Source of the DNA: Flavobacteriales bacterium | Lineage (GTDB): Bacteria > Bacteroidota > Bacteroidia > Flavobacteriales_F > PHOS-HE28 | DNA: 32,000 nucleotides | Assembly: GCA_016704485.1 (NCBI GenBank) | Contig: JADJAA010000001.1 | Coordinates: forward strand, 2,271,975-2,303,974 | Direction: 5' to 3' | In this document: piece by piece, positions 19,234 to 32,000 of the stretch | Numbering within the stretch: the first letter of the stretch is position 1 | Layout: each line of letters opens with the position of its first letter | Made by a program: the position numbers and the translations under genes | The notes under the pieces: generated by a model | The model's input: the letters and a program-made list of their open reading frames with translations, nothing else | Told to the model about the DNA's origin: nothing | Database searches by the model: none

Positions 19234-19254
19234 CTTTGTACATTCAAAGCTTTA
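19234..19254 (+). promoter_or_regulatory. Operator-like motif upstream of mmsA
   Basis: CTTTG (19234-19238), a 6-nt spacer, CAAAG (19245-19249) and CTTTA (19250-19254). This is the same forward-reverse-forward half-site arrangement as at 10142-10164. It ends 14 nt before ATG 19269. Confidence 0.3.
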
Positions 19255-19268
19255 TACGATCTCATCAC

Positions 19269-20741
19269 ATGGCGACCGAAACATTTAAATATCCCGAAAC
19301 GACAAATTACATCGCTGGTAAACCAGTGAACGGCACTCCCAAGAAAATGGATGTTCGCTCGCCGTTGGATGGGAGCATAATCAGTACCGTTGCACTTTCA
19401 ACCGCAAAGGATCTTGATGTCGCTGTGAAAGCCGCGGAAGCCGCATTCCCAGCGTGGAGCGGCACTCCGATCAAAGAGCGATCGCAGATCTTTTTCAGGT
19501 ACCGCGAATTACTATCCAAGAATCGTGAAGAATTGGCCCTGCTCGTGCATACAGAGAACGGCAAGACTATGGATGAGTCCTATGCCGAGGTGGACAAGAG
19601 CATGGAACTTACGGAATTTGCTTGTAGCCTGCCGCAGTTGGTACAAGGTGAATTGCTCGAAGTGAGTAAAGGCGTAGAGTGCCGTATCGAGCGCAAACCA
19701 TTGGGAGTGGTAGCCAGCATTGCACCTTTCAACTTTCCGAACATGGTGCCGCATTGGACCATCCCGAACGCATTGATGTTGGGCAATACCATGATCCTGA
19801 AGCCAAGTGAAGTGGTGCCGATCAGTGCCATTCGCATTGCTGAATTGCTGAAGGAAGCCGGATTGCCTGATGGTGTGTTCAATGTGGTGAACGGTGATCG
19901 CGAGATCGTTGAAGCGATATGTGATCATCCCGGAATTAAGGCGGTGAGTTTTGTCGGTAGTACCAAGGTTGCAAAACTGGTGTACATCCGTGCATGCGCA
20001 TCCTTGAAGCGTGCGTTGTGCCTGGGCGGAGCGAAGAACCACCTGCTCGTTCTACCCGATGCACATCTGGAAATGACAGCCAGTAACGTTGTAGCGAGCA
20101 TGAGCGGATGTGCTGGACAGCGTTGTATGGCCGCAGCGCAAATGGTGGGGATCGGCGCTGTGGACCACATTATTCAACAGATGCTTATCGAAGCCAAGAA
20201 GTTGATCCCCGGAAAGAATTTGGGACCTGTGATCAGCAAAGCATCCTACGAATGGATCCTCGGTTTCATAGATGAAGCGGAAAAGGCAGGTGCAAAAGTG
20301 ATCCTCGATGGTCGCAACCCAAAAGTGGATGGTGGTGCAAAAGACGGATACTATCTGGGGCCCACGATCATCGATCACGTTACTGCGGACATGCGCATTT
20401 CAAAAGAAGAAGTGTTCGGTCCCGTCATCAGCATTATACGAGCAAAGGACCTCGATGCCGCGATCGCGATCGAGAACGCAAACCCGTATGGTAATGCCGC
20501 TGCCGTCTTCACACAAAGTGGTGGACAGGCGCGTCAAGTCATGGAACGCGCCAGTGCCGGTATGATCGGTGTAAACATCGGTGTACCCGTGCCACGCGAA
20601 CCCTTTAGTTTCGGCGGTTGGAATGATAGCAAGTTCGGTACTTGCGACATCACGGGAAAAAGCTCCATTGAATTCTGGACACAACTGAAAAAGACCACCA
20701 CCAAGTGGAATCCTGAGGGGAAGACGAATTGGATGAGCTGA
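19269..20741 (+). CDS. mmsA: CoA-acylating methylmalonate/malonate-semialdehyde dehydrogenase
   Basis: ALDH fold with FNFPNMVPHWTIPNALMLGNTMILKPSE and catalytic Cys in GCAGQRCMA. GGAKNH replaces the usual ELGG Glu motif, which is typical of MmsA. Start is taken at ATG 19269 rather than the track's TTG 19236. Confidence 0.9.
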   Translation: MATETFKYPETTNYIAGKPVNGTPKKMDVRSPLDGSIISTVALSTAKDLDVAVKAAEAAFPAWSGTPIKERSQIFFRYRELLSKNREELALLVHTENGKTMDESYAEVDKSMELTEFACSLPQLVQGELLEVSKGVECRIERKPLGVVASIAPFNFPNMVPHWTIPNALMLGNTMILKPSEVVPISAIRIAELLKEAGLPDGVFNVVNGDREIVEAICDHPGIKAVSFVGSTKVAKLVYIRACASLKRALCLGGAKNHLLVLPDAHLEMTASNVVASMSGCAGQRCMAAAQMVGIGAVDHIIQQMLIEAKKLIPGKNLGPVISKASYEWILGFIDEAEKAGAKVILDGRNPKVDGGAKDGYYLGPTIIDHVTADMRISKEEVFGPVISIIRAKDLDAAIAIENANPYGNAAAVFTQSGGQARQVMERASAGMIGVNIGVPVPREPFSFGGWNDSKFGTCDITGKSSIEFWTQLKKTTTKWNPEGKTNWMS

Positions 20742-20746
20742 TAAAT

Positions 20747-20840
20747 AGAACGCTGATGACGCTGAAAGATCTGATGATCACAGATAGATGCTCCCTTTCA
20801 GATGCGCGTTGATCCATTCTTTCCCCGTCATCTGCGTTCC
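20747..20840 (+). repeat. Gene-less inverted-repeat (hairpin) element homologous to the arms that flank the GxxExxY genes
   Basis: The left end AGAACGCTGATGACGCTGA shares its 18 nt GAACGCTGATGACGCTGA (20748-20765) with 31185-31202. The right end GTCATCTGCGTTCC resembles GTCATCAGCGTTCC at 31641-31654. 19 of the outer 22 arm positions are complementary. Confidence 0.65.
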
Positions 20841-20862
20841 ATTATCTATGTAATTGCACACT

Positions 20863-20934
20863 ATGAGCACGACCACCAAGACCAACCCCGCCGAGATCCA
20901 CAAGGACAATCTCGAGCATTCGGTCTATAGCTGA
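20863..20934 (+). pseudogene. 5' relic (23 codons) of a class-III aminotransferase gene
   Basis: It translates to MSTTTKTNPAEIHKDNLEHSVYS*. That matches the first 23 aa of the intact gene at 22966 (MSMQTKTNPSEILKDNLEHSIFS) at 16 of 23 positions. TGA replaces the TGG of Trp24, and similarity is lost after about 20940. Confidence 0.7.
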
Positions 20935-21046
20935 ACAAGTGATCTGGCCCTTCCTCGGTTTAAAGACAACAGTCGGAAGCCTGAGCGCGGGGAAGTGGGG
21001 CGGCAACCCTGATCCCTGCTAGTTCAAACCGCATACATTTACCATC

Positions 21047-22726: not shown

Positions 22727-22888
22727 TAAAGTGCAACTCGGCTACATTTCAGGGCTTGGGATTCGACAGACCTATGACCTGTCCTGATCCAATATGCCAC
22801 TCCAATTATACGTGACTTTCAACAAAAGAACGCAGGCGAATAGCCTAGAAGAGCTTCAGATAAACCGAAGATAAATTGTTGAACTTTG

Positions 22889-22896
22889 TACGTTTG
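22889..22896 (+). promoter_or_regulatory. Candidate Bacteroidota -7 promoter box TACGTTTG
   Basis: A perfect TAnnTTTG match 70 nt upstream of ATG 22966. There is no properly spaced -33 TTTG; the nearest TTG is only 10 nt upstream. Confidence 0.3.
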
Positions 22897-22965
22897 AATG
22901 GAATCCGGATCGCTCCGGACCATCAACTAGCGAAATAGAAAGACCATGGCCCTGCGCCAACCAAC

Positions 22966-24318
22966 ATGAGTATGCAAACCAAAACCAACCCCTCCGAGAT
23001 CCTAAAGGACAACCTCGAACACAGCATTTTCAGTTGGAGCAAGCAAAGCGGCTTGATTCCACTGAACATCGAACGTGCAAAAGGGCTTTACCTCTACACA
23101 CGAGAGGGAAAGAAGATCCTCGATTTCAGTTCGCAATTGATGAACGTGAATATTGGGCATGGACATCCGAAAGTGGCGGAAGCCGTGGCGAAACAGATGG
23201 CTGAGCTGAGTTACGTGCATCCCGGTATGATCACCGAGGCTCGTGGAAAGTTGAGTAAGAAATTGAGCGAGATCACTCCTGGTACTTTGAACCGTACGTT
23301 CTTTACGAACGGCGGTACCGAAGCAGTGGAACATGCAATGAAGTTGGCCCGTTTGCATACCGGTCGTCACAAGATCATTACACTTTACCAGAGCTACCAC
23401 GGTGCTACATATGGTGCATTAACGGCAGGTGGCGATCCACGCGGATTGCCTCATGATAGCCAAGGTGTACCCAACATCATCCATGTTGAGAATCCGTACT
23501 TCTATCGCTGTCCTTGGAATAGCAAGACGCCTGAAGAGTGCACCGAGAACGCACTAGCACATTTGGAACGCGTGATGAAATTCGAAGGCCCGCAATACAT
23601 CGCGGCCATCATGATGGAAGGGGAGAGCGGTTCCAGTGGCTGCATTAAATACCCACCGGGTTATTGGAAAGGCGTTAGCGCAATTGCCGAGAAGTACGGT
23701 ATTCTGACAATTTGCGATGAGGTGATGAGCGGCTTTGGTCGCACCGGAAAGTGGTTCGGTATTGATCATCATGGTGTGGTGCCGGATATCATGTGCATGG
23801 CGAAAGGACTCACTGCCGGTTACATCCCACTCGGAGGTATCATCGTGAAAGAAGAGATCATCAAGCACTTCGATGATAAGCCATTACCCATCGGACTGAC
23901 ATACAGCGCGCATGCCGTGGCTTGTGCTGCGGGCAATGCTGTTCTTGATATTTACGAAGAAGAGAACCTGGTTGAGAATGCTGCCAACATGGGCCGCTAT
24001 GTGGATGAAAGTGTGGCCAAACTCGCCCAGAAACACCCGAGCATCGGAGATTTCCGCAATACAGGGTTGCTCGGTTGCATTGAACTGGTAAAGAACCGCG
24101 ATACCAAAGAACCCATGGCACCTTGGAACGCAACACCTGATCAAATGGGCGTCATGAACAAAGTGGCTGCCAAGCTGACCGAGCTCGGCATGTTCACTTT
24201 CGTGCGCTGGAACTGGATCTTCGTTGCACCGCCACTTACGATCGGCAAAGAAGGGATTGATGAAGGGATGGAGATCATCAGCAAGGCCTTGAGTATTGCG
24301 GATGAGGGGTGCAACTAA
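22966..24318 (+). CDS. Class-III (omega / beta-alanine:pyruvate-type) aminotransferase
   Basis: 450 aa. The blocks FTNGGTEAVEHAMKLAR, ICDEVMSGFGRTGKWFG and the PLP-Lys region DIMCMAKGLTAGYIPLG are present. The pathway context predicts beta-alanine/beta-aminoisobutyrate as substrate (inference). Confidence 0.9.
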   Translation: MSMQTKTNPSEILKDNLEHSIFSWSKQSGLIPLNIERAKGLYLYTREGKKILDFSSQLMNVNIGHGHPKVAEAVAKQMAELSYVHPGMITEARGKLSKKLSEITPGTLNRTFFTNGGTEAVEHAMKLARLHTGRHKIITLYQSYHGATYGALTAGGDPRGLPHDSQGVPNIIHVENPYFYRCPWNSKTPEECTENALAHLERVMKFEGPQYIAAIMMEGESGSSGCIKYPPGYWKGVSAIAEKYGILTICDEVMSGFGRTGKWFGIDHHGVVPDIMCMAKGLTAGYIPLGGIIVKEEIIKHFDDKPLPIGLTYSAHAVACAAGNAVLDIYEEENLVENAANMGRYVDESVAKLAQKHPSIGDFRNTGLLGCIELVKNRDTKEPMAPWNATPDQMGVMNKVAAKLTELGMFTFVRWNWIFVAPPLTIGKEGIDEGMEIISKALSIADEGCN

Positions 24319-24374
24319 ATCACGGATCGTGTGCGGGGTATCTTAACTGATCCGTTAAGGGCGTTATCGCTTCC

Positions 24375-24923
24375 ATGCCGAAGTCCACTACCTATATTCT
24401 GCTCTTTAGAGGTGTTGGCGGAGAAACACAACTACCTGTTGACCCATTGCGAAAGGCGCTTACGGAATTGGGCTTCACTGGAGTGACCACGTACATCAAC
24501 AGCGGCAACGCATTGGTGCGGAGCACGTTTACTCGGGATAAGACTCTTGCCAAAGTAGTGGAACTGTGCAAGGAGCAGTTCGGTTTCGATAAACCCATTT
24601 TCGCGTCAACGGCTGCGGAATGGGCTGAGGTGATCGCCAACAACCCGTTCCCGAACGCCTTAGCGACACCCAAGTTCTTGCACGCGGCATTGTTGGCTTC
24701 TGCAGCCGATGCGGCCCGTATAAAAGCCATTCAAGCTATAGCTGTGGATGGCGAGCAACTGAAGGTGGTGAAGTGCGTGGCCTACATCCACACTCCGAAT
24801 GGCTTCGGCACTTCCAAAATGGCCGCCAAATTCGATAAGGGTATTGGAGTAGTGAACACTGCCCGCAATTGGAACACTGTGCTGAAGTTACACGAGTTGG
24901 CCTTGGCGTTGGAAGAGATGTGA
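24375..24923 (+). CDS. DUF1697 domain protein
   Basis: 182 aa. YILLFRGVGGETQLPVDPLRKALTELGFTGVTTYINSGNALV matches the DUF1697 N-terminal pattern. Confidence 0.75.
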   Translation: MPKSTTYILLFRGVGGETQLPVDPLRKALTELGFTGVTTYINSGNALVRSTFTRDKTLAKVVELCKEQFGFDKPIFASTAAEWAEVIANNPFPNALATPKFLHAALLASAADAARIKAIQAIAVDGEQLKVVKCVAYIHTPNGFGTSKMAAKFDKGIGVVNTARNWNTVLKLHELALALEEM

Positions 24924-24992
24924 CGTAGAGGGCTCCGTGAGTTGATCTGTGAGCTGGTTCGCAATTGGTGTTTGAAGCCTTTGCGGAGTAAC

Positions 24993-25760
24993 TCACTCCT
25001 TATACCAATCCACCAGACGTACTTCGATCTTTGGATCACCCGTGTTCACCAGTTCTTTGAACCGTTCCACATCACTTAACCCTTCCGGACCGCGGTAGTG
25101 GCATGGATACACCACTTTCGGCTGAAAAGCAAGCACACCGCTAGCCGCTTGGTCTACTGTCATGGTGTATGGTAGGTTCATGCAAACAAAGGCGATGTCG
25201 ATGTTCTTCAGTGCGCGCATTTCCGGGATGTCCTCTGTATCACCGGAGATGTAAATGCGCTCTCCCCCCATAGTGAGCACATAGCCGTTGCCGCGTCCTT
25301 TTGGGTGGCGTGGGTCGTTAGGGTCGGGCATATTATACATTGGTATGGCCTCAATACCAATGCTGTTCTTTTCGATAGATGCGCCATTGGCAAGTACGGA
25401 AGTGATCTTTTGCAACGCTTCGGGGAGTAGGTCCATTACAGCTTGCGGCGCAATGATTTGCGCTTTGCTCAGATCAAATTCTTGCAAGGTCTTTGCATCA
25501 AAGTGGTCTCCGTGGATGTCCGTGATCAGGATCAGATCCGGTGCGGCATACTGCTTGAAACGATAAGCGCCATCGTGCGGGTCCACATAGACCGTTACGC
25601 CGTTCCATTCCAACACCAAGGCGCTATGGTGAACAGGTGCGATCTTGACGGCAGTTGCTTCGCTGTGGATCATATTCTGAGCGCTTGTCGTATTCATGGC
25701 AAAGGCGCAAGCGAGCGTAGCGCCAATGATTAGTAAATGGGAAGGTAGGGACGCTAACAT
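24993..25760 (-). CDS. Secreted MBL-fold metallo-hydrolase
   Basis: 255 aa. A signal peptide ends in SAQN. It has LITDIHGDHFD (an HxHxDH-like motif), ISGDTED and a distal H. This is the Lactamase_B_3-type small MBL architecture. Confidence 0.75.
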   Translation of the reverse strand: MLASLPSHLLIIGATLACAFAMNTTSAQNMIHSEATAVKIAPVHHSALVLEWNGVTVYVDPHDGAYRFKQYAAPDLILITDIHGDHFDAKTLQEFDLSKAQIIAPQAVMDLLPEALQKITSVLANGASIEKNSIGIEAIPMYNMPDPNDPRHPKGRGNGYVLTMGGERIYISGDTEDIPEMRALKNIDIAFVCMNLPYTMTVDQAASGVLAFQPKVVYPCHYRGPEGLSDVERFKELVNTGDPKIEVRLVDWYKE

Positions 25761-25883
25761 GGCCCGAAGTTACGGTAAGGCCTTTTCGATATGATCGATC
25801 AAGTTGTCGTCAAGAGGAGTAAGCTTTGTATGCACTCCGATCCCAGATCGAACAACATTCCGTTCCTTGGCCCCATTAACGCA

Positions 25884-27578
25884 ATGGTAGATCAACCGTT
25901 CACGCACAGCATCAAAAACTCCCCACTCTACAGCGAAGACCTGGCGCCGATCCCAGTAGAAAAACGCACGTGGAGCAAATGGAACCTCGCGGCATTATGG
26001 GTGGGAATGGCCGTATGCATTCCTACGTACCTATTGGCGAGTTACATGATGCGCGCTGGCCTTAGCTGGCAAGCCGCACTTACTATTATCGGCTTGGCTA
26101 ATTTGGTGATCACCATACCTATGGTCCTCAATGGCCATGCGGGCGTGAAGTATGGTATTCCTTTTCCTGTGCAAGGTCGTGCAGCTTTCGGAACGGTCGG
26201 CATTCACATTCCAAGTATCGTAAGAGCGATCGTTGCATGTGGATGGTTCGGCGTGCAAACATGGATCGGAGGTTTGGCGATCTATTCCATATGGAATGCT
26301 GCAACTGGTGATGTTGGTGATCTTGGATTGAGCGCTGGAAAATTCATTGCGTTCGGGATCTTCTGGTTGATCCAGATCTGGTTCATTTGGCGCGGTACCG
26401 AAAGCATAAAATGGCTGGAGACATGGGCTGCACCGATCCTGATCATCATCGGGATGCTATTGATCGGCTGGGGTGCAACGAATGCGGGCGGATTAAGTGT
26501 AGCACTGGAACAAGGCAAACAATTGCAACATGCAACTGCCGTGTTGGTGCCTTACGCGGATGCCACTACCGGTCACGAATTGCGATTAACGCCGTTGGTC
26601 GGTTCGGATGGAGTACCAAAAGCCACGGAGTATCGAATTGTTCCTAGAACTAAAATGGATGGCGGATCGGATGCTTGGCTACCGATCACTAGTTCGACGA
26701 CAAGTCATGCAATGGGAGTTGAACCATCAGTGAATGTTCAGTTCCGGAACGCTGAAGGGCAAGAGTCAACCATACTAAAAGTTGGTGCTAGCCCCGGTGT
26801 GCCGGAAAGTGCAGGTTTTATGAGCTACTTATTGTGGTTCACAGCAATGGTCGGTTTTTGGGCAACCATGGCGATCAGTATCTCGGACATTACACGTTAT
26901 GCAAGTAGCCAGAAGGATCAATTGGCCGGGCAGTTCATCGGCTTGCCGGGTACCATGATCTTTTATTCGTTCGTCGGGATCTTCGTCACAAGCGCGGCGG
27001 TCATCGCCTTCCGGGATGTACTTATTGCAGAGGATGCACCGTGGGATCCCGTTTCGTTGGTCAGCAAATTCTCCAGTCCAGGCGTTGTCATTTTTGCACA
27101 ATTGGCGATGTTGATCGCAACACTCAGTACCAATATTGCAGCCAACGTCATAGCACCCGCGAACGCATTCAGCAACTTGTTCCCACAGAAGATCAGTTTC
27201 AGGGTTGGTGGTGTGATCGCTGGGTTGATCGGTATCTTGATCTGCCCATGGTGGTTGCTCGATGAGATCAGCGGACTTCTGATCTTCGTGAGCGGATTGC
27301 TTGGTCCGGTGTTGGGCATTCTGTTGTGCGACTATTTCATCATCCGCAAGAAAGAATTGTCAGTGCCAGATCTTTTCGCGGTGGACGGCAAGTACCGTTT
27401 CACTTCTGGCTTTAACATAGTAGCGATCGTCGCGCTTGTTGTCGGTGTGTTCGCCGCACTTATCGGTTTCTGGGTCGAAGCGCTGGCTTTGCTTTATCAA
27501 CTTTCTTGGTTCACTGGGTTCGTAGTAGCCTTTGTGGTGTATTGGCTTGGAATGAGGCCACGACCCCAAGTCATCTGA
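25884..27578 (+). CDS. NCS1 family nucleobase:cation symporter (uracil/cytosine/hydantoin-type permease) with a large loop insertion
   Basis: It has NSPLYSEDLAPIPVEKRTWSKWNLAALWVGM, FPVQGRAAFG, the SISDITRYASS region and about 12 TM segments. Start is taken at ATG 25884. The track start 25791 would leave only 30 nt to the divergent gene. Confidence 0.85.
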   Translation: MVDQPFTHSIKNSPLYSEDLAPIPVEKRTWSKWNLAALWVGMAVCIPTYLLASYMMRAGLSWQAALTIIGLANLVITIPMVLNGHAGVKYGIPFPVQGRAAFGTVGIHIPSIVRAIVACGWFGVQTWIGGLAIYSIWNAATGDVGDLGLSAGKFIAFGIFWLIQIWFIWRGTESIKWLETWAAPILIIIGMLLIGWGATNAGGLSVALEQGKQLQHATAVLVPYADATTGHELRLTPLVGSDGVPKATEYRIVPRTKMDGGSDAWLPITSSTTSHAMGVEPSVNVQFRNAEGQESTILKVGASPGVPESAGFMSYLLWFTAMVGFWATMAISISDITRYASSQKDQLAGQFIGLPGTMIFYSFVGIFVTSAAVIAFRDVLIAEDAPWDPVSLVSKFSSPGVVIFAQLAMLIATLSTNIAANVIAPANAFSNLFPQKISFRVGGVIAGLIGILICPWWLLDEISGLLIFVSGLLGPVLGILLCDYFIIRKKELSVPDLFAVDGKYRFTSGFNIVAIVALVVGVFAALIGFWVEALALLYQLSWFTGFVVAFVVYWLGMRPRPQVI

Positions 27579-27684
27579 GAGCTAGATCTAGAAAGCGTAG
27601 CGACGATCAACGATCAGCCAAAATTGATAGTTGAGCTTATGTGATTACGCTTCAATAGCTAATACTTCTTGGTTCCAGGAAAAT

Positions 27685-28122
27685 TCAAACGCTTACCGCC
27701 TCTTGCTGGAATATCCAATCCAATGCTTCCGATGGTTTAGGGAACCATGCTACTTTGAACGTGAGCTGACCATGGACTGCGGTGAAGGACCGCTGAACAC
27801 TGGTCTGGTTGAAGTAGTCAGACGATTCCAAGATCGCCATTTTTTCTAACCGCGAATCAAATAATTTCGGGAACCAGACCTCGTTCGCCCACTGCTCATC
27901 CGATTTAAGGATCGCCGTCATTTCGCGTAGGTCGGCGATCCAATACACCAGATCAAACTTCACGACAATATCCAGCGCCAATTCGAGGCTTGAACGATAC
28001 TGGTCGCTGCGCGCATGGCCCTTCCATTCTAAGTGGATCAATTCATTATTTGCTGACCTGCGTATCGATAAATACGGCTCGTCCAATACAGTGATCATAC
28101 TATGAAGTGGCGACAGTTCCAT
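27685..28122 (-). CDS. Hypothetical protein (possibly STAS/SpoIIAA-like fold)
   Basis: This is the 145-aa C-terminal part of the 323-aa track ORF, starting at MELSPLH (ATG 28122). The upstream part of the track ORF reads through the palindromic repeat and runs antisense to the dihydropyrimidinase gene. Confidence 0.5.
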   Translation of the reverse strand: MELSPLHSMITVLDEPYLSIRRSANNELIHLEWKGHARSDQYRSSLELALDIVVKFDLVYWIADLREMTAILKSDEQWANEVWFPKLFDSRLEKMAILESSDYFNQTSVQRSFTAVHGQLTFKVAWFPKPSEALDWIFQQEAVSV

Positions 28123-28249
28123 TGGTGTGCGAAAAGTACTCAGATCAGAGCGAAAATGCCAGTGATATAGCACGAAATGGTAGTTAGTAAGGAAGAGTTT
28201 GATGTTCACTGATGAGATAATCTGGACTTGCGTGAGGGATAGTAGTGGA

Positions 28250-28317
28250 AAGCCCGTAAGCGAGGAGTCCCGCAGTCCGCCGTACGGCGGACTGCGGGAC
28301 TCCTCGCTTACGGGCTT
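28250..28317. repeat. 68-bp perfect palindrome (34-nt arms, no spacer)
   Basis: AAGCCCGTAAGCGAGGAGTCCCGCAGTCCGCCGT (28250-28283) is the exact reverse complement of 28284-28317, with centre CCGTACGG. Verified base by base. Confidence 0.95.
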
Positions 28318-28319
28318 GC

Positions 28320-28385
28320 ACCCTTCGACTCCGCTCAGGGCAACTCCAAACCCGACCCGAAGTTCCCTGAGCGGAGCCGAAGGGT
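28320..28385. repeat. Second hairpin (21-nt arms, 24-nt loop) adjacent to the palindrome
   Basis: ACCCTTCGACTCCGCTCAGGG (28320-28340) matches the reverse complement of 28365-28385 (ACCCTTCGGCTCCGCTCAGGG) at 20 of 21 positions. Confidence 0.9.
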
Positions 28386-28415
28386 ACGAAGGGGCACGCC
28401 CAACTTCTGATCCAA

Positions 28416-28428
28416 CCAAGTAACTTGG
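28416..28428. promoter_or_regulatory. 13-bp palindrome CCAAGTAACTTGG, operator candidate
   Basis: Perfect 6-bp arms around one central base. It ends 25 nt upstream of ATG 28454. Confidence 0.25.
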
Positions 28429-28453
28429 AGCCGATACTGACACCCTATTGATC

Positions 28454-29833
28454 ATGAGCATACTGATAAAGAACGGAACCGTTGTAACCGCCGCTGATTT
28501 CCACCGCGCCGATGTCCTCATTGAAGGCGAACACGTAAAGGCCATTGGCCATGGTCTTGCTGCTGAAGGAGCTGAGGTGATTGATGCGAAAGGTATGTTC
28601 GTATTGCCCGGAGGTATCGATCCGCATGTGCATTTGGACATGCCGTTCATGGGCACGTTCAGCAGTGATAATTACGAGACCGGAACGCGCGCTGCCTTGC
28701 ATGGCGGTACAACTACTGTGATCGATTTCATACTACAGACCCAAGGTAAAAGTTTGCGACATGCGCTGGAACAATGGCAAGGCCGCATGCAGGGCAATCT
28801 TTTCGGTGATCTCAGCTGGCACATGGCCGTTACCGATTTCAACGATGAGACGAAGAAGGAAGTGAAGGAGATGATCGAGCAGGAAGGCATCACCAGTTTC
28901 AAAACCTTCATGGCCTACAAGGGCGCGTTGATGATCGATGACCGCCAAATGGTTGGTCTGATGAACGAAGTGAAGGCGCAGGGCGGACTCGTTACGGTGC
29001 ATGCGACGAACGGCGATATGATCGATTTTCTGGTTCAGAAACACCGGGCTGAAGGGAAGATGGCACCGCTGTACCACTACTTATCTCAGCCAGAGATCAC
29101 CGAGGCTGAAGCGAGTGGCCGCTTTGCGGATATGGCTTGGCACACGGGTGTACCGGCGTACATCGTACACATGACCTGCGAAGGTGCATTGAACCATGTT
29201 CGCGATGCGACGCGACGCAACCAGCGCGTGTTGGCCGAGACATGCATTCAGTATTTGTTGCTGGATGCTTCGCTTTATGAACAGGCTGATGGCGCGAAAT
29301 GGGTGATGAGCCCGCCGTTGCGTGAGAAGAAGGATCAGGCCGCTTTGTGGGGTGCGATCGAGCAAGGTTCCATCCAGGTAGTAGCAACGGATCATTGCCC
29401 CTTTATGATGGCGCAGAAAGCGATGGGTTCCGCAGATTTCTCGAAGATCCCCAACGGACATCCAGCGATAGAACACCGGATGGAGTTGCTCTTCAGCGAA
29501 GGTGTGAACAAGAAACGGATCTCATTGAACAAGTTCGTGGAAGTGACCGCTACGAATCCTGCCAAGATCTTCGGGATGTTTCCGCGCAAAGGGACGATCG
29601 GCATTGGAAGCGATGCGGACATTGTGATACTTGATCCGAACGAAAAGCATACACTCAGCGCCAAAACGCACCACATGAACGTGGACTATAGTGGCTATGA
29701 AGGCATGCAACTGACCGGCAAGGTTAAGACCGTGATCCTACGTGGACAAGTGGCTATCGACAAAGGCGAGGTGAAGATCAAGAAGGGATACGGGCAGTTC
29801 ATAAAGCGGAACAAGGTGAGTGGAATGCTTTGA
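28454..29833 (+). CDS. Dihydropyrimidinase (D-hydantoinase)
   Basis: MSILIKNGTVVTA...VLPGGIDPHVHLDMPF is the HxH metal site. FKTFMAYKG holds the carboxylated Lys. VHATNG and VATDHCPF supply the remaining ligands. Start is taken at ATG 28454 rather than TTG 28448. Confidence 0.9.
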   Translation: MSILIKNGTVVTAADFHRADVLIEGEHVKAIGHGLAAEGAEVIDAKGMFVLPGGIDPHVHLDMPFMGTFSSDNYETGTRAALHGGTTTVIDFILQTQGKSLRHALEQWQGRMQGNLFGDLSWHMAVTDFNDETKKEVKEMIEQEGITSFKTFMAYKGALMIDDRQMVGLMNEVKAQGGLVTVHATNGDMIDFLVQKHRAEGKMAPLYHYLSQPEITEAEASGRFADMAWHTGVPAYIVHMTCEGALNHVRDATRRNQRVLAETCIQYLLLDASLYEQADGAKWVMSPPLREKKDQAALWGAIEQGSIQVVATDHCPFMMAQKAMGSADFSKIPNGHPAIEHRMELLFSEGVNKKRISLNKFVEVTATNPAKIFGMFPRKGTIGIGSDADIVILDPNEKHTLSAKTHHMNVDYSGYEGMQLTGKVKTVILRGQVAIDKGEVKIKKGYGQFIKRNKVSGML

Positions 29834-29840
29834 AGGAATG

Positions 29841-30302
29841 GCACGCTGATAACGCAGTAAGAACGGATAAACACTGATATGAAGGATGGACAGGAATATT
29901 TACATAGTGAGTTGACCGATGTTATTATTAAAGCGTTCTATGCTGTGTATAATAGGTTGGGTTATGGCTTCCTTGAGAAGGTTTATGAAAATGCCATGTT
30001 GTTGGAATTAAAGGAGATGGGACTTTCAGTTGAGCGGCAAAGACCAATTACCGTACTATATCATGATCAAGAAGTTGGGCAATACTATGCAGACCTCATA
30101 GTCGATAATAAAGTGATCCTGGAATTGAAGGCAGCAGATGGATTACGAGATGAGCATGTTCATCAATTGATCAACTATCTCAAAGCTACACGTATCGAAG
30201 TCGGCATACTGTTTAACTTCGGGACCAAACCGCAATTCAAAAGAAAGATCTTCACGAACTCTTGATCTGCGTTGATCAGTTCTTTCAGCGTTATCAGCGT
30301 TC
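29841..30302 (+). mobile_element. Inverted-repeat-bounded GxxExxY gene cassette 1
   Basis: 29841-29878 is complementary to 30265-30302 at 31 of 38 positions, with a perfect 13-nt core (ACGCTGATAACGC 29843-29855 with 30288-30300). The arms end exactly at the ATG (29879) and begin at the last base of the stop codon (30265). Mobility is inferred, not shown. Confidence 0.55.
29879..30265 (+). CDS. GxxExxY protein (PD-(D/E)XK nuclease-like superfamily)
   Basis: 128 aa. GFLEKVY is the GxxExxY motif. ADLIVDNKVILELKA supplies a D...ExK nuclease-like signature. Confidence 0.85.
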   Translation: MKDGQEYLHSELTDVIIKAFYAVYNRLGYGFLEKVYENAMLLELKEMGLSVERQRPITVLYHDQEVGQYYADLIVDNKVILELKAADGLRDEHVHQLINYLKATRIEVGILFNFGTKPQFKRKIFTNS

Positions 30303-30318
30303 TCTATTTTCCTAGAAC

Positions 30319-31185
30319 ATGCCAAGAAAAATAAAGTCCGGTCTTATCCAAATGAGCCTGCCCATGACCGAGGGCGAAGGAACGATCCCAGAGATCATCA
30401 ACGCGATGGTGCAAAAGCACATTCCGATGATCGAGGAAGCAGGCAAAAAAGGTGTGCAGATCCTGTGTTTGCAGGAGATCTTCAATACGCCCTATTTCTG
30501 TCCCGGTCAAGATCATAAATGGTACGAAAGCGCGGAAAGCGTTCCTGGACCTACCACGGAATTGATGCAGACCTACGCGAAGAAGTACAACATGGTGATC
30601 ATCGTTCCGATCTATGAGAAGGAATCAGCCGGTGTGTTGTACAACACAGCCGCAGTGATCGATGCGGATGGCACCTACCTTGGAAAGTACCGCAAGAACC
30701 ACATTCCACATACCACAGGCTTCTGGGAGAAATTCTTCTTCAAGCCCGGCAATCTTGGTTATCCCGTCTTCCAAACGAAGTATGCCAAAGTGGGTGTGTA
30801 CATCTGCTATGATCGTCACTTTCCTGATGGTGCGCGTTGCTTAGGACTGAACGGTGCTGAGATCGTATATAACCCTTCAGCCACAGTAGCCGGTTTAAGT
30901 GAATACCTCTGGAAACTTGAGCAACCAGCGCATGCCGCGGCGAACGGTTACTTCATGGGTTGCATTAATCGCGTTGGTGAGGAGAAACCATGGAACCTCG
31001 GAAAGTTCTACGGACAATCATATTTTGTGGATCCACGCGGTCAGATCTTCGCACAAGCAAGCCGCGATGATGATGAATTACTGATCGTGGAATTCGATCT
31101 GGATATGATCGAGGAGGTGAGAAGCACTTGGCAGTTCTACAGAGATCGGCGACCGGAGACATACGGTAGACTCACGGAACTATAG
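30319..31185 (+). CDS. Beta-ureidopropionase / N-carbamoyl-beta-alanine amidohydrolase (nitrilase superfamily)
   Basis: 288 aa. The CN-hydrolase catalytic triad context is LCLQEIF (Glu), YRKNHIP (Lys) and VYICYDRHFP (Cys). It is adjacent to the dihydropyrimidinase gene. Confidence 0.85.
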   Translation: MPRKIKSGLIQMSLPMTEGEGTIPEIINAMVQKHIPMIEEAGKKGVQILCLQEIFNTPYFCPGQDHKWYESAESVPGPTTELMQTYAKKYNMVIIVPIYEKESAGVLYNTAAVIDADGTYLGKYRKNHIPHTTGFWEKFFFKPGNLGYPVFQTKYAKVGVYICYDRHFPDGARCLGLNGAEIVYNPSATVAGLSEYLWKLEQPAHAAANGYFMGCINRVGEEKPWNLGKFYGQSYFVDPRGQIFAQASRDDDELLIVEFDLDMIEEVRSTWQFYRDRRPETYGRLTEL

Positions 31186-31653
31186 AACGCTGATGACGCT
31201 GATTGATATGATAGAGAATGATGAAAGCCAACTTCTGGATGCTGGGAATTACAAGCATTCGGAGTTGACGGAACAAGTCATTAAGGCGTTCTACACAGTG
31301 TACAACACGTTGGGCTACGGGTTCCTTGAAAAGGTTTACGAGAACGCGATGCTCCATGAGCTGAGGAAAATGGGATTGAATGTTAAGAACCAGCACCCGA
31401 TAACGGTCTTCTATGATGGTGTGAAAGTGGGAACCTACTCTGCAGATCTTTTGGTTGAAGAACTCGTCATTATTGAGTTGAAGGCGGCAAAGGACTTCTG
31501 CGAGGCAGACGAATACCAATTGGTTAATTACCTCAAGGCAACAAATAGTGAAGTAGGTCTTTTACTGAACTTTGGGAAGAAGCCACGCATCAAAAGAAAA
31601 GTCTTCTCAAACCTATCATAAGTTGATCATAAAGATCAGCGTCATCAGCGTTC
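31185..31653 (+). mobile_element. Inverted-repeat-bounded GxxExxY gene cassette 2
   Basis: GAACGCTGATGACGCTGAT (31185-31203) is the perfect reverse complement of ATCAGCGTCATCAGCGTTC (31635-31653). A further 6-bp pairing, TATGAT/ATCATA, follows a 3-nt mismatch. The left arm starts at the last base of the upstream stop codon. Confidence 0.6.
31193..31621 (+). CDS. GxxExxY protein (PD-(D/E)XK nuclease-like superfamily), second paralog
   Basis: 142 aa as tracked, with the same GFLEKVY and ADLLVEELVIIELKA motifs. It is roughly 60% identical to the first copy by eye. ATG 31193 lies inside the inverted repeat, and ATG 31208 is an alternative start. Confidence 0.8.
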   Translation: MTLIDMIENDESQLLDAGNYKHSELTEQVIKAFYTVYNTLGYGFLEKVYENAMLHELRKMGLNVKNQHPITVFYDGVKVGTYSADLLVEELVIIELKAAKDFCEADEYQLVNYLKATNSEVGLLLNFGKKPRIKRKVFSNLS

Positions 31654-31663
31654 CTCTATTACC

Positions 31664-32000
31664 ATGGCAGAATACAAGAAACCAACCACCGAAGCCGAGT
31701 TCAACGCCAACTTCCATCCGAAGAAACCGTTGATGACGGATACCGAAGCATATTACGAAAGCTCGCGCTGTCTGTATTGCTACGACGCGCCATGTGTAAC
31801 TGCTTGCCCGACAGGGATCGACATTCCTCAGTTCATTCGGCAGATCAATAGTGGAACCAATGAAGGTGCCGCCAAAACGATCTATGATAGCAATTGGATG
31901 GGACATGCTTGCGGCAATGTCTGCCCAACAGAGGAACTGTGCGAAGGTGCTTGTGTATACAATCATAGCGATGTGAAACCGATCGAGATCGGAAGGTTGC
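31664..32000 (+). CDS. PreT/dihydropyrimidine dehydrogenase-like Fe-S flavoprotein subunit, 5' partial (runs off window)
   Basis: My own translation from ATG 31664 gives MAEYKKPTTEAEF...SRCLYCYDAPCVTACPTGIDIPQFIRQINSGTNEGAAKTIYDSNWMGHACGNVCPTEELCEGACVY. This matches the N-terminal 4Fe-4S domain pattern of DPD/PreT/GltD-like proteins. It is not in the ORF track because it is open at the window end. Confidence 0.8.
   Translation, partial: MAEYKKPTTEAEFNANFHPKKPLMTDTEAYYESSRCLYCYDAPCVTACPTGIDIPQFIRQINSGTNEGAAKTIYDSNWMGHACGNVCPTEELCEGACVYNHSDVKPIEIGRL

What the first reader, a model, noticed from the sequence alone, without database searches (positions are those of the whole stretch)
29841..31653. 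GxxExxY nuclease-like genes sit exactly in the loops of long inverted repeats that fill consecutive intercistronic gaps of the pyrimidine-catabolism operon
Two diverged GxxExxY ORFs separate dihydropyrimidinase, beta-ureidopropionase and the PreT-like gene. Each ORF is bracketed by homologous inverted repeats with core ACGCTGAT[G/A]ACGC. Cassette 2 has 19-nt perfect arms. Cassette 1 has 31 of 38 complementary positions, with arms ending precisely at the ATG and at the last base of the stop codon. Each element begins 0-8 nt after the upstream stop and ends 10-17 nt before the next start, next to a shared TCTATT motif. The arms are better conserved than the proteins, so the structure itself seems to be under selection. 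The GxxExxY family is known only as a multi-copy PD-(D/E)XK-like family of unknown function. Hypothesis (inference): these are selfish, hairpin-targeting cassettes, with the protein acting as a structure-specific nuclease that homes into hairpin or cruciform sites. Alternatively the stem is an RNase III-type processing or insulation signal that lets the insert be tolerated inside an operon, as with ORF-bearing intervening sequences in 23S rRNA.
Basis: partly seen in the sequence, partly recalled or inferred. Interest (0 to 1): 0.75.

Follow-up and report, generated by a model that had tools for sequence, protein, structure and literature searches.

The report
Nuclease genes nested in palindromic repeats
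Two small nuclease genes wedged between the genes of a pyrimidine-breakdown operon belong to an apparently undescribed family of palindromic repeat elements, found from Bacteroidota to archaea, that either carry or lack a RecB/Cas4-like nuclease gene and most likely behave as selfish DNA riding on host operon transcription.

Summary
Both ORFs are GxxExxY proteins (PF13366/TIGR04256). Each is bracketed by inverted arms that fill the gaps dihydropyrimidinase / beta-ureidopropionase / PreT. A third copy without an ORF (20745-20842) follows the aldehyde dehydrogenase gene. The arms are not local. In 44 of 80 homologous loci from many phyla, both flanks carry the same inward-facing terminus, ATRG[A/C]AC[G/A]CnGAT, followed by three more 9-10-nt units ending in GAT. 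Element lengths fall into two classes, about 80-150 nt without an ORF and about 450-550 nt with one. When sampled by arm sequence, ORF-less copies outnumber ORF-bearing ones by more than 10 to 1, and GxxExxY is the only cargo found. ORF-bearing copies sit in the sense orientation between co-directional genes (54 loci against 1). Their left end lies a median of 5 nt after the upstream stop codon. Orthologous operons show empty, filled, decayed and differently filled gaps. The arms are conserved as sequence, not as base pairs: G·U and A·C mismatches are equally common and there is no compensatory change within elements. The most likely reading is a REPIN/RAYT-like or MITE-like selfish repeat system whose enzyme is a minimal RecB/Cas4-type nuclease. 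An RNA-level role like that of 23S rRNA intervening sequences is not excluded.

The parts
29838..30308 (+). Cassette 1: a complete ORF-bearing element. Left terminus ATGGCACGCTGAT..., right terminus ...ATCAGCGTTC+TCTATT.
   Evidence: Inverted repeat I1. Terminus 10-mers at 29841 (+) and 30302 (-). The RNA minimum-free-energy and centroid folds close the arm stem.
29841..29878 (+). Left arm of cassette 1, made of four units ending in GAT or GT (GCACGCTGAT AACGCAGT AAGAACGGAT AAACACTGAT). It ends one base before the ATG.
29879..30265 (+). GxxExxY ORF A (128 aa), a RecB/Cas4-like PD-(D/E)XK nuclease domain with D72, E82-x-K84 and Q96-x3-Y100 invariant across the family.
30265..30302 (+). Right arm of cassette 1. 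It starts on the last base of the stop codon.
31182..31660 (+). Cassette 2: a complete ORF-bearing element. Its left terminus TATAGAACGCTGAT contains the TAG stop codon of beta-ureidopropionase (31183-31185).
   Evidence: Inverted repeat I3 (distance -1); RNA fold z = -4.3 with the arms paired.
31185..31212 (+). Left arm of cassette 2. It overlaps the annotated 5' end of ORF B.
31193..31621 (+). GxxExxY ORF B (142 aa from the first ATG). The N-terminal extension is encoded by the arm. Alternative starts lie at 31208 and 31220. The conserved core begins at about residue 20.
31626..31653 (+). Right arm of cassette 2.
20745..20842 (+). ORF-less copy of the same element (two arms and a short loop), 3 nt after the double stop of the aldehyde dehydrogenase gene. 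Its left 18 nt are identical to both arms of cassette 2.
   Evidence: It folds as one long hairpin of -34 kcal/mol, z = -2.8.
28448..29833 (+). Host gene: dihydropyrimidinase (Amidohydro_1).
30319..31185 (+). Host gene: beta-ureidopropionase (CN_hydrolase).
31664..32000 (+). Host gene: PreT-like subunit of dihydropyrimidine dehydrogenase (Fer4_20). It runs off the end of the window; in L001 it is 447 aa and is followed by PreA.
19236..20741 (+). Host gene: aldehyde dehydrogenase, upstream of the ORF-less copy.

Best explanation
The two cassettes, and the ORF-less copy at 20745-20842, belong to a widespread family of small palindromic repeat elements.

Anatomy. Each arm is about 40 nt long. It has a conserved outer terminus, (A)ATRG[A/C]AC[G/A]CnGAT, followed by three more 9-10-nt units that each end in GAT. 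The units are thus spaced about one helical turn apart, which suggests a phased array of protein-binding sites. The long form (about 450-550 nt) carries one promoterless gene between the arms. This gene encodes a 125-aa RecB/Cas4-like PD-(D/E)XK nuclease of the GxxExxY family. The short form (about 80-150 nt) is just the two arms, and it is far more numerous.

Proposed mechanism. The nuclease recognises the arm repeats as DNA and promotes copying or maintenance of the elements. It could do so by cutting at or near arm pairs, with repair templated by another copy (homing or gene conversion into ORF-less hairpins). Alternatively it could work by excision and insertion, as RAYT transposases do for REP/REPIN repeats.

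Why they sit where they do. The gene has no promoter, so only copies in the sense orientation inside transcribed operons stay expressed. Only insertions in the few bases between a stop codon and the next gene's initiation region are tolerated. That explains why the copies fill intercistronic gaps so exactly.

Shown: family membership; conservation of the arms across phyla; the two length classes; the excess of ORF-less copies; the sense and intercistronic placement; empty, filled and decayed orthologous sites; homogeneity of copies within a genome; conservation of the arms as sequence rather than as pairs.

Inferred: that the nuclease binds the arms; that it acts on DNA; that it mobilises the elements; and the route by which it does so.
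For: 1. Arm and ORF travel together. In 44 of 80 GxxExxY loci, both flanks carry the 10-mer terminus in inward orientation within 130 nt, and 15 more carry it on one side; chance is about 0.003 per flank. These loci come from Bacteroidota, Ignavibacteriota, Desulfobacterota, Gammaproteobacteria, Chloroflexota, Patescibacteria, Cloacimonadota and a Methanoperedenaceae archaeon. The arm consensus is shown.
2. Lengths fall into two classes: 48 elements of 50-200 nt and 42 of 400-600 nt. Every long one holds GxxExxY.
3. Among 120 metagenome loci selected by arm sequence, about 56 arm hits belong to ORF-less hairpins, 49 are apparently solo arms and 3-4 belong to ORF-bearing elements. GxxExxY is the only cargo, and 10 of the 120 loci hold the gene.
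4. Placement. Both neighbours are co-directional with the ORF in 54 loci, against 1 antisense. The upstream stop lies a median of 5 nt from the terminus, and in 9 of 42 cases the upstream TAG is the TAG of aTAGAAC. The next start codon lies a median of 18 nt beyond the right terminus. Of 90 ORF-less copies, 88 are intergenic: 43 between tandem genes, 10 between convergent genes and 4 between divergent genes.
5. Site polymorphism in the orthologous operon. Both gaps are empty in Cellulophaga (11 and 31 nt). A decayed or solo arm sits at gap 1 in L147. Cassette 1 is present in two other species. In one of them it has nested double arms, outer-left, inner-left, ORF, inner-right, outer-right.
6. 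Turnover. Between species 2 and 3 the flanking genes have dS 0.57-0.83 and 90-95% protein identity, whereas the cassette ORF at the same site has dS about 3.5 and 82% identity.
7. ORF-less copies within one genome are 85-90% identical over their full length, against 62% between genomes.
8. The arms are conserved as sequence. G·U v A·C mismatches are 65 v 69 and 61 v 68. Complementarity between the two arms of one element scores 16.6, against 16.7 for arms of different elements in the same locus, and both are below left-to-left similarity at 24.3. RNAalifold gives a covariation term of -0.32 kcal/mol.
9. The protein looks catalytically intact and DNA-directed. D72, E82, K84, Q96 and Y100 are invariant in 18 diverse members. 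D...ExK...QxxxY is the RecB-family signature (my own knowledge of the family). The AF2 model has pLDDT 88.6. The best structural matches are Cas4 SSO0001 and lambda-type exonucleases, and there are weak Cas4 HMM hits. dN is far below dS.
Against: No target-site duplication could be defined. The 3-4 nt outside GAAC are themselves inverted (ATA/ATG on the left, TAT/CAT on the right), so a palindromic TA duplication cannot be told apart from the inverted repeat.

No pair of near-identical ORF-bearing copies at different sites was seen. The two copies in the window are only 62% identical with saturated dS. All ten near-identical strains carry both cassettes. Any movement of the ORF-bearing form is therefore slow or rare, and cassette 1 has occupied the same gap in three species.

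No stand-alone PD-(D/E)XK protein is known to transpose DNA by itself (my knowledge).

The family is almost absent from plasmids (8 of 72,556 records) and absent from 50,697 phage genomes. The vehicle for its cross-phylum spread is therefore unknown.

The architecture is not uniform. In about 15-25% of loci the ORF lies between complete hairpins rather than in a loop. Solo arms exist. One plasmid copy has direct rather than inverted arms.

Homogeneity within a genome could come from tandem duplication and gene conversion without any dedicated enzyme.
Confidence: 0.55

Rival explanations
1. The element works at the RNA level, like an intervening sequence. In the polycistronic transcript the arms pair. 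The stem is cut by RNase III, or by the encoded nuclease acting as an RNase. Alternatively the stem simply brings the upstream stop next to the downstream start. Either way the insert is excised or insulated, and operon expression and translational coupling survive. The arms are kept for that purpose.
For: The minimum-free-energy and centroid RNA folds of both cassettes close the arm stem, and the ORF-less copy folds as a single hairpin. The sense orientation is nearly absolute, 54 loci against 1. The element abuts the upstream stop codon, so a terminating ribosome would reach the stem. In two related genomes the same gap holds a PF05635 23S_rRNA_IVP gene with its own inverted repeats. Other IVP genes in my loci are also bracketed by iterated inverted repeats. 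23S rRNA intervening sequences have an inverted-repeat stem, an ORF and RNase III excision, and the Coxiella one carries tandem GACAGAT heptamers before its ORF (PMC4990558). tRNA-splicing endonucleases appear among the weak fold matches.
Against: There is no excess of G·U over A·C mismatches on the sense strand, many mismatches are transversions and only about 80% of positions pair. There is no compensatory change within elements and almost no covariation. The primary sequence of the arms is conserved across phyla, which a generic RNase III stem would not need. Solo arms and hairpin-ORF-hairpin arrangements exist. The protein's signature and best fold matches are DNA nucleases of the RecB/Cas4/lambda-exonuclease type. 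ORF-less copies show no significant orientation bias relative to transcription (32 v 20 loci, p = 0.13).
Confidence: 0.2
2. The repeats are a host-level system rather than a parasite. On this reading the hairpins serve the host as REP sequences are proposed to: as mRNA 3'-end stabilisers, attenuators between cistrons, or binding sites for nucleoid or topology proteins. The GxxExxY protein would be a domesticated factor that binds or trims them, or a defence or repair nuclease that happens to be kept next to them.
For: The location is almost exclusively intergenic, enriched downstream of genes and depleted between divergent genes. Cassette 1 has stayed in the same gap in three species, and all strains of the source population carry both cassettes. 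The protein is under strong purifying selection, 60-74% identical across phyla with 48 invariant columns. The family is near-absent from plasmids and phages.
Against: The same operon works without any element in Cellulophaga and in L147. The gaps are variously filled by unrelated hairpins or by IVP genes, some of them pseudogenised. ORF copies at one site turn over faster than the host genes around them. The gene is multi-copy and patchily distributed, including in an archaeon, with arms and gene moving together. It does not match any model of a known defence system beyond weak Cas4 similarity.
Confidence: 0.15
3. The inverted repeats are chance matches or ordinary gene-specific terminators or attenuators, unrelated to the ORFs.
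For: Intercistronic hairpins of other kinds do occur in these genomes, for example L092 7395-7500 and window 28248-28319.
Against: The same terminus and unit structure flank GxxExxY genes in dozens of genomes from different phyla. The motif is strongly over-represented in the window. There is no T-run typical of an intrinsic terminator.
Confidence: 0.01

Closest known systems
REP/REPIN repeats with their RAYT transposase (REPtrons and TIRtrons; PMC3733652, PMC6006769)
   Same: Short palindromic, intergenic repeats that are numerous and homogeneous within a genome. They often occur as arrays. They lie mostly downstream of genes. The cognate enzyme gene is itself flanked by the repeats in inverted orientation. 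Non-coding copies vastly outnumber the gene.
   Different: The enzyme here is a 125-aa RecB/Cas4-like PD-(D/E)XK nuclease, not an HUH/Y1 (IS200/IS605-type) transposase. The termini are ATRG[A/C]AC..., followed by four phased units ending in GAT, not a GTAG- or CGTC-tagged stem-loop. The gene is multi-copy (two copies within 1.4 kb here), promoterless and embedded in operons in the sense orientation. The arm sequence is conserved across phyla rather than being species-specific.
ORF-bearing intervening sequences of 23S rRNA (S23p / PF05635; Coxiella, Leptospira; PMC4990558)
   Same: A small ORF of about 120 aa lies in the loop of a stem formed by terminal inverted repeats, inserted in a highly transcribed host RNA in the sense orientation. 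ORF-less short forms also exist. Iterated short units lie next to the ORF start (GACAGAT heptamers in Coxiella). A PF05635 gene occupies the very same intercistronic gap in two related genomes.
   Different: The host site here is an mRNA intercistronic gap, not rRNA helix 25 or 45. The cargo is a nuclease, not a four-helix-bundle protein. The arm family is different. RNase III excision is demonstrated for intervening sequences but is untested here, and the arms show no RNA-type covariation.
MITEs and their autonomous TIR transposons
   Same: Terminal inverted repeats with subterminal iterated motifs. Short non-autonomous copies consist of little more than the two ends. Longer copies carry a single gene. 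Nested insertion is seen (L091).
   Different: There is no DDE or other known transposase. No target-site duplication can be demonstrated. The long form is only about 470 bp. Orientation and position are tightly constrained to operon gaps.
Free-standing homing endonuclease genes (for example the phage T4 seg and mob genes) and PD-(D/E)XK homing endonucleases such as I-Ssp6803I
   Same: A small, promoterless nuclease gene inserted between conserved genes, co-transcribed with them, and present or absent at the same site in related genomes. The ORF at a fixed site turns over.
   Different: Homing endonuclease genes are not bracketed by conserved inverted repeats and have no abundant ORF-less derivatives. 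Their target is the empty allele of the host site, not a repeat. No sequence membership in a characterised homing-endonuclease family was found.

Membership tests
GxxExxY protein family (TIGR04256; Pfam PF13366 PDDEXK_3) | HMM score above the curated cutoff | tested here: met
   PF13366: 143 and 140 bits against a cutoff of 22. TIGR04256: 135 bits for both against a cutoff of 35.
GxxExxY protein family (TIGR04256; Pfam PF13366 PDDEXK_3) | GxxExxY motif and the PD-(D/E)XK catalytic residues | tested here: met
   G30-F-L-E33-K-V-Y36, D72, E82-L-K84 and Q96...Y100 are invariant in an alignment of 18 sequences that includes both window ORFs.
PD-(D/E)XK nuclease fold, RecB/Cas4-like branch | Alpha-beta-beta-beta-alpha-beta core resembling solved members | tested here: inconclusive
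   The AF2 model has pLDDT 88.6. The Foldseek top hits are Cas4 SSO0001 (E 5e-4, TM 0.43-0.51) and lambda-type exonucleases, but the TM-scores are low. There is no sequence hit in the PDB.
REPIN/RAYT (REPtron) systems | Abundant short palindromic intergenic repeats that are homogeneous within a genome | tested here: met
REPIN/RAYT (REPtron) systems | Enzyme gene flanked by the repeats in inverted orientation | tested here: met
   44/80 loci have arms on both sides. The hairpin-ORF-hairpin arrangement is seen in L037 and L074.
REPIN/RAYT (REPtron) systems | The enzyme is an HUH/Y1 transposase of the IS200/IS605 type | tested here: not met
   The only Pfam match is PF13366.
REPIN/RAYT (REPtron) systems | The repeat carries a GTAG (or CGTC) tag at one end of the stem | tested here: not met
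   The terminus consensus is aATaGAACgCnGAT or ATGGCAC.... The defining feature is taken from PMC3733652.
23S rRNA intervening sequence (IVS) elements | Inserted in 23S rRNA (helix 25 or 45) | tested here: not met
   Both cassettes lie between protein-coding genes. No rRNA or other Rfam family was found in the window region or in 15 homologous loci.
23S rRNA intervening sequence (IVS) elements | Terminal inverted repeats form a stem that encloses the ORF | tested here: met
23S rRNA intervening sequence (IVS) elements | The cargo is an S23p / PF05635 four-helix-bundle protein | tested here: not met
   The cargo is PF13366. PF05635 genes occupy the same gap in L148 and L149, but with different arms.
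23S rRNA intervening sequence (IVS) elements | Excised from the transcript by RNase III | not testable with these tools
MITE / TIR transposon | Terminal inverted repeats shared by short non-coding copies and longer coding copies | tested here: met
MITE / TIR transposon | Target-site duplication flanking the element | tested here: inconclusive
   The flanks ATA/ATG on the left and TAT/CAT on the right are inverted, not direct. A palindromic TA duplication cannot be separated from the inverted repeat.
MITE / TIR transposon | The autonomous copy encodes a recognised transposase (DDE, serine, tyrosine or HUH) | tested here: not met
Free-standing homing endonuclease gene | Presence/absence polymorphism of the nuclease gene at an otherwise conserved intergenic site | tested here: met
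Free-standing homing endonuclease gene | The nuclease cleaves the allele or site that lacks the gene | not testable with these tools
   This needs a biochemical cleavage assay on empty gaps and on ORF-less hairpins.
Known anti-phage defence systems (PADLOC) | Match to a defence-system protein model | tested here: not met
   Only marginal hits were found: Cas4 E 0.004 and PDC-M36A E 0.002.

The most novel reading that the evidence does not exclude
GxxExxY cassettes and their ORF-less hairpins are a new class of prokaryotic mobile element. Its only enzyme is a minimal RecB/Cas4-like PD-(D/E)XK nuclease that recognises phased 9-10-nt GAT units in the element ends. It spreads either by cutting ORF-less or empty repeat sites, so that repair copies the gene in, or by a hairpin- or cruciform-resolving excision reaction. 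This would be a mechanism of mobility distinct from the DDE, HUH, serine and tyrosine enzymes. The class would be the mRNA-operon counterpart of 23S rRNA intervening sequences, and could explain where those come from.
Probability: 0.35. Interest if true: 0.9.

Novelty: new variant of a known kind. Interest (0 to 1): 0.8.

Why it matters
GxxExxY proteins are annotated by the thousand in Bacteroidota and many other phyla, and no function is known for them. The only papers I found that mention the family either list it as 'unknown' or name it in passing. This analysis ties the family to a specific cis element that is conserved across phyla, and it shows a consistent lifestyle.

That gives the family a testable function: does the protein bind or cut the GAT-unit arms? 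It identifies a large class of unannotated intergenic repeats. It explains the odd small genes that split otherwise tight operons. It also links them by architecture, and by sharing the same insertion gap, to the long-puzzling ORF-bearing intervening sequences of 23S rRNA.

If the nuclease does mobilise the elements, it would add a new enzymatic route to DNA mobility. It would also supply a compact, sequence-directed nuclease with a defined target of about 40 bp.

Tried and rejected
- Rfam. A permissive scan of window 20000-32000 and a gathering-threshold scan of 15 homologous loci found nothing on the arms. The only hits were spurious miRNA matches to an unrelated GC-rich palindrome.
- Literature. 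'GxxExxY', PF13366/PDDEXK_3, the TIGR and IPR accessions and six arm-sequence strings gave no paper describing the element.
- Viral contigs. A search by arm pattern returned 51 stretches. About half look like chance matches inside genes, and the rest are solo arms or arms around non-coding repeat DNA. None carries a GxxExxY gene, so phages are not an obvious vector. The phage genome collection gave no protein match and the plasmid collection gave only 8.
- Other cargo. None was found between arms in any sample. The PF05635 genes in my loci have their own, different inverted repeats.
- Target-site duplication. None could be defined.
- Orientation bias of ORF-less copies relative to transcription. 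Inconclusive: 32 v 20 loci, p = 0.13. The per-element count is inflated by arrays.
- My first duplex-energy test was blurred because arms from different genomes pair with each other. I replaced it with motif-based counts.
- A stricter alignment-based search for partner arms under-called partners, because arms are only about 80% complementary. The regex-based counts are the ones I used.


Full report
**1. What is in the window**

ORF A (29879-30265) and ORF B (31193-31621) are clear members of the GxxExxY family: PF13366 with E about 1e-41, and TIGR04256 with 135 bits against a cutoff of 35. They are 62% identical to each other.

They separate dihydropyrimidinase, beta-ureidopropionase and a PreT-like gene. 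PreA and a deaminase follow just beyond the window.

Each ORF lies between inverted arms: 36 nt at 83% complementarity for cassette 1, and 28 nt at 89% for cassette 2, the outer 19 nt of which are perfect.
- In cassette 1 the arms end at the ATG and start at the last base of the stop codon.
- In cassette 2 the element's first bases include the TAG stop of beta-ureidopropionase.
- The core 13-mer is strongly over-represented in the window.

The same search exposed a third copy without an ORF, at 20745-20842, 3 nt after the aldehyde dehydrogenase stop. It folds as one long hairpin. The 'TCTATT' motif is simply the outermost part of the inverted repeat.

**2. The arms are a family trait, not a local feature**

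The protein family is very large and tightly conserved. There were more than 7,800 hits, and the top 120 were 64-100% identical.

I fetched 80 homologous loci from species-representative genomes. They span Bacteroidota, Ignavibacteriota, Desulfobacterota, Gammaproteobacteria, Chloroflexota, Acidobacteriota, Cloacimonadota, Patescibacteria, Calditrichota and a Methanoperedenaceae archaeon.

Reading the flanks showed the same sequence around the ORF in distant phyla, for example aatagaacgcggatgacgcggattgagcggat. I then searched for a 10-mer describing the terminus, G[AC]AC[GA][CT][GTA]GAT.
- It lies inward-facing on both sides of the ORF in 44 of 80 loci, and on one side in 15 more. About 17 chance hits were expected in all 378 kb.
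- Most remaining loci have arms in other arrangements or with slightly different termini.

Position-wise consensus gives aATaGAAC[g/a]CnGAT gAC[a/g]CnGAT tnAACnGAT tnaCACnGAT for both arms. That is four iterated 9-10-nt units ending in GAT. The arms run into the variable N-terminal extension and C-terminal tail of the ORF, which explains the ragged ends of the protein alignment.

**3. Two forms, and the ORF-less form dominates**

Distances between facing termini fall into two classes: 48 elements of 50-200 nt and 42 of 400-600 nt. Every long one contains GxxExxY.

To sample without bias towards the protein, I scanned metagenome contigs with the window's arm sequence.
- Of 134 arm hits in 120 loci, 56 belong to short hairpins, 49 have no recognisable partner, 20 lie at contig ends and only 3-4 belong to ORF-bearing elements.
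- Ten of the 120 loci contain a GxxExxY gene, always next to the arms.
- No other cargo was found.

ORF-less copies often form tandem arrays next to an ORF copy (L037, L074, L214). Copies from one genome are 85-90% identical over their whole length, against 62% between genomes.

**4. Placement**

In 54 loci both neighbours run the same way as the GxxExxY ORF. In only one are both antisense.

For 42 ORF-bearing elements in such a context:
- the outer GAAC lies a median of 5 nt after the upstream stop;
- in 9 cases the stop is the TAG of aTAGAAC, as in window cassette 2;
- the next start codon lies a median of 18 nt after the right terminus.

The two distances add up to about the size of an unoccupied gap, which is 11 and 31 nt in Cellulophaga. 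ORF-less copies are intergenic in 88 of 90 cases, mostly between tandem genes: 43, against 10 convergent and 4 divergent.

**5. Orthologous operons show gain, loss and turnover**

All ten near-identical contigs of the source population (a Flavobacteriales MAG from activated sludge) carry both cassettes.
- Two other species carry a cassette in the dihydropyrimidinase / beta-ureidopropionase gap. In one of them the arms are doubled and nested: outer-left, inner-left, ORF, inner-right, outer-right.
- Host proteins are 90-95% identical between these species, but the cassette protein is only 73-82% identical. Between species 2 and 3 the host genes have dS 0.57-0.83, whereas the cassette ORF has dS about 3.5. 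This suggests the resident ORF has been replaced or converted, rather than simply inherited.
- At the second gap, species 2 has an unrelated GC-rich hairpin. Species 3 has only a left terminus, TAGAACGCGGAT, followed by rearranged DNA. A Gelidibacter-like MAG has an empty gap 2 and a decayed arm in gap 1. Cellulophaga has both gaps empty.
- Two further genomes carry a PF05635 '23S rRNA intervening sequence protein' gene in gap 2, apparently pseudogenised, with its own different inverted repeats.

**6. Is the hairpin itself selected?**

I tested this in four ways.
- (a) Transition mismatches in the stems. On the sense strand, G·U against A·C is 65 v 69 for ORF-bearing elements and 61 v 68 for ORF-less ones. 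Only about 80% of positions pair, and many mismatches are transversions. A structured RNA would show a strong excess of G·U.
- (b) Arms of the same element are no more complementary than left and right arms of different elements in the same locus (16.6 v 16.7). Left arms of different elements resemble each other more (24.3).
- (c) RNAalifold on 51 ORF-less copies from different loci gives -4.78 kcal/mol with a covariation term of -0.32. At the one variable paired position, A·C and G·U are equally common, 7 each.
- (d) Nevertheless both window transcripts, and the ORF-less copy, do fold with the arms paired.

The arms therefore can pair, but what is conserved is their sequence. This points to recognition by a sequence-specific protein. 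The obvious candidate is the equally conserved protein they accompany (inference).

**7. The protein**

D72, E82-x-K84 and Q96-x3-Y100 are invariant. D...ExK...QxxxY is the signature of RecB-family nucleases (my knowledge of the family). The AF2 model is confident, with pLDDT 88.6. Its best structural matches are Cas4 SSO0001, a Spirosoma 'restriction endonuclease-like' protein and lambda-type exonucleases, all with modest scores. Weak Cas4 HMM hits agree with this.

There is no PDB sequence relative, no PHROG match and no defence-system match. dN is far below dS.

**8. Interpretation**

The data fit a repeat-element system in which abundant non-coding palindromes coexist with rarer copies carrying a cognate nuclease gene. 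This is the logic of REPIN/RAYT systems or of MITEs with their autonomous partners, but with a PD-(D/E)XK enzyme and a distinctive end structure.
- The sense-strand, intercistronic placement follows if the gene is promoterless and needs operon read-through. It also follows if only insertions that spare the next gene's initiation region survive.
- The mechanism of spread is not shown. Homing or conversion into ORF-less hairpins would fit the nested copy and the ORF turnover. Excision and insertion is the other possibility.
- Counter-evidence includes the absence of a definable target duplication, the absence of young ORF-bearing duplicates, long residence at one site, variable architectures, and near-absence from plasmids and phages.
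- An RNA-level role like that of an intervening sequence remains a live rival, because of the shared gap with IVP genes and the Coxiella precedent. It lacks RNA-type evolutionary signatures.

**9. Novelty**

I found no paper that assigns the family a function or describes these arms. The kind of thing, a palindromic repeat with a cognate enzyme, is known. This enzyme class, this end architecture and this operon-gap lifestyle appear not to be. I rate it a new variant of a known kind, of high interest.

Noticed in passing
L148 4394-4744 and L149 4401-4748 (the gap between beta-ureidopropionase and PreT): In two related Flavobacteriia, the gap that holds cassette 2 in the window instead holds a PF05635 '23S rRNA intervening sequence protein' gene. 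The gene has in-frame stops and its own short inverted repeats (GGTATCTG...CAGATACC). Two different small-ORF cassette families therefore use the same intercistronic site. IVP genes in L013 (78-416) and L018 (512-850) are likewise bracketed by iterated inverted repeats.
   Followed up: partly
window 28248-28319: A perfect GC-rich palindrome of about 34 bp per arm lies upstream of the dihydropyrimidinase gene and is unrelated to the GAT-unit arms. It caused spurious miRNA hits in Rfam.
   Followed up: no
window 20864-20935, compared with 22966-23040: Directly after the ORF-less element lies a 23-codon remnant that is about 80% identical to the 5' end of the aminotransferase gene, ending in a stop. 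It is followed by an adenylate-cyclase-like gene (21047-22726) and then by the full aminotransferase. This looks like an old rearrangement or insertion that displaced the aminotransferase from the aldehyde dehydrogenase gene.
   Followed up: partly
L092 7395-7500: In species 2, the gap corresponding to cassette 2 holds a different GC-rich hairpin built from iterated units of about 11 nt (GTTGCGGGTTA... / ...TAACCCGCAAC). It appears to be another family of intercistronic palindromic repeats.
   Followed up: no
L091 7630-7990: An array of about thirteen 27-nt tandem repeats (CCTC[C/T]GCAAGAATGCTGAACC...) follows a lone left terminus of the element, at the spot where the operon is broken in species 3. 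A ParE toxin gene lies downstream.
   Followed up: no
L098 1719-1790, and about 12 related IMG/VR contigs (L102, L105, L109, L111, L121, L124, L130, L133, L137, L139, L141, L145): A complete four-unit arm (GAACGCAGATGACGCAGATAGAACGGATTTACACAGATT) fills a stop-to-ATG gap between phage structural-looking genes. It has no partner arm and no GxxExxY gene nearby. It is either a solo arm or a relic inside viral genomes.
   Followed up: partly
L122 264-807; also L107, L127 and L142: Arm pairs of a GC-rich variant (GGAACGCGGATGACACGGATGCTGCG...) bracket several hundred nt of non-coding DNA. That DNA is full of other repeat families, including the motif GTCATTGCGAGG...GCAATCTC.
   Followed up: no
L214 2602-4132 and L251 2048-3272: Long tandem arrays of 79-80-nt ORF-less elements occur at a period of about 89-96 nt (spacers of about 10-15 nt). 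Some units are 100% identical, and a GxxExxY gene sits inside each array.
   Followed up: partly
L271 2190-2920 (Fusobacteria bacterium ZRK30 plasmid pZRK30-1): This is one of only 8 plasmid-borne copies. Here three arm-like sequences (...ATCAGATTTAATCCGTGTACCTAT) lie in the same orientation before and after the ORF. They are direct rather than inverted, and the terminus is a variant, ATAGGTACACGGAT.
   Followed up: no
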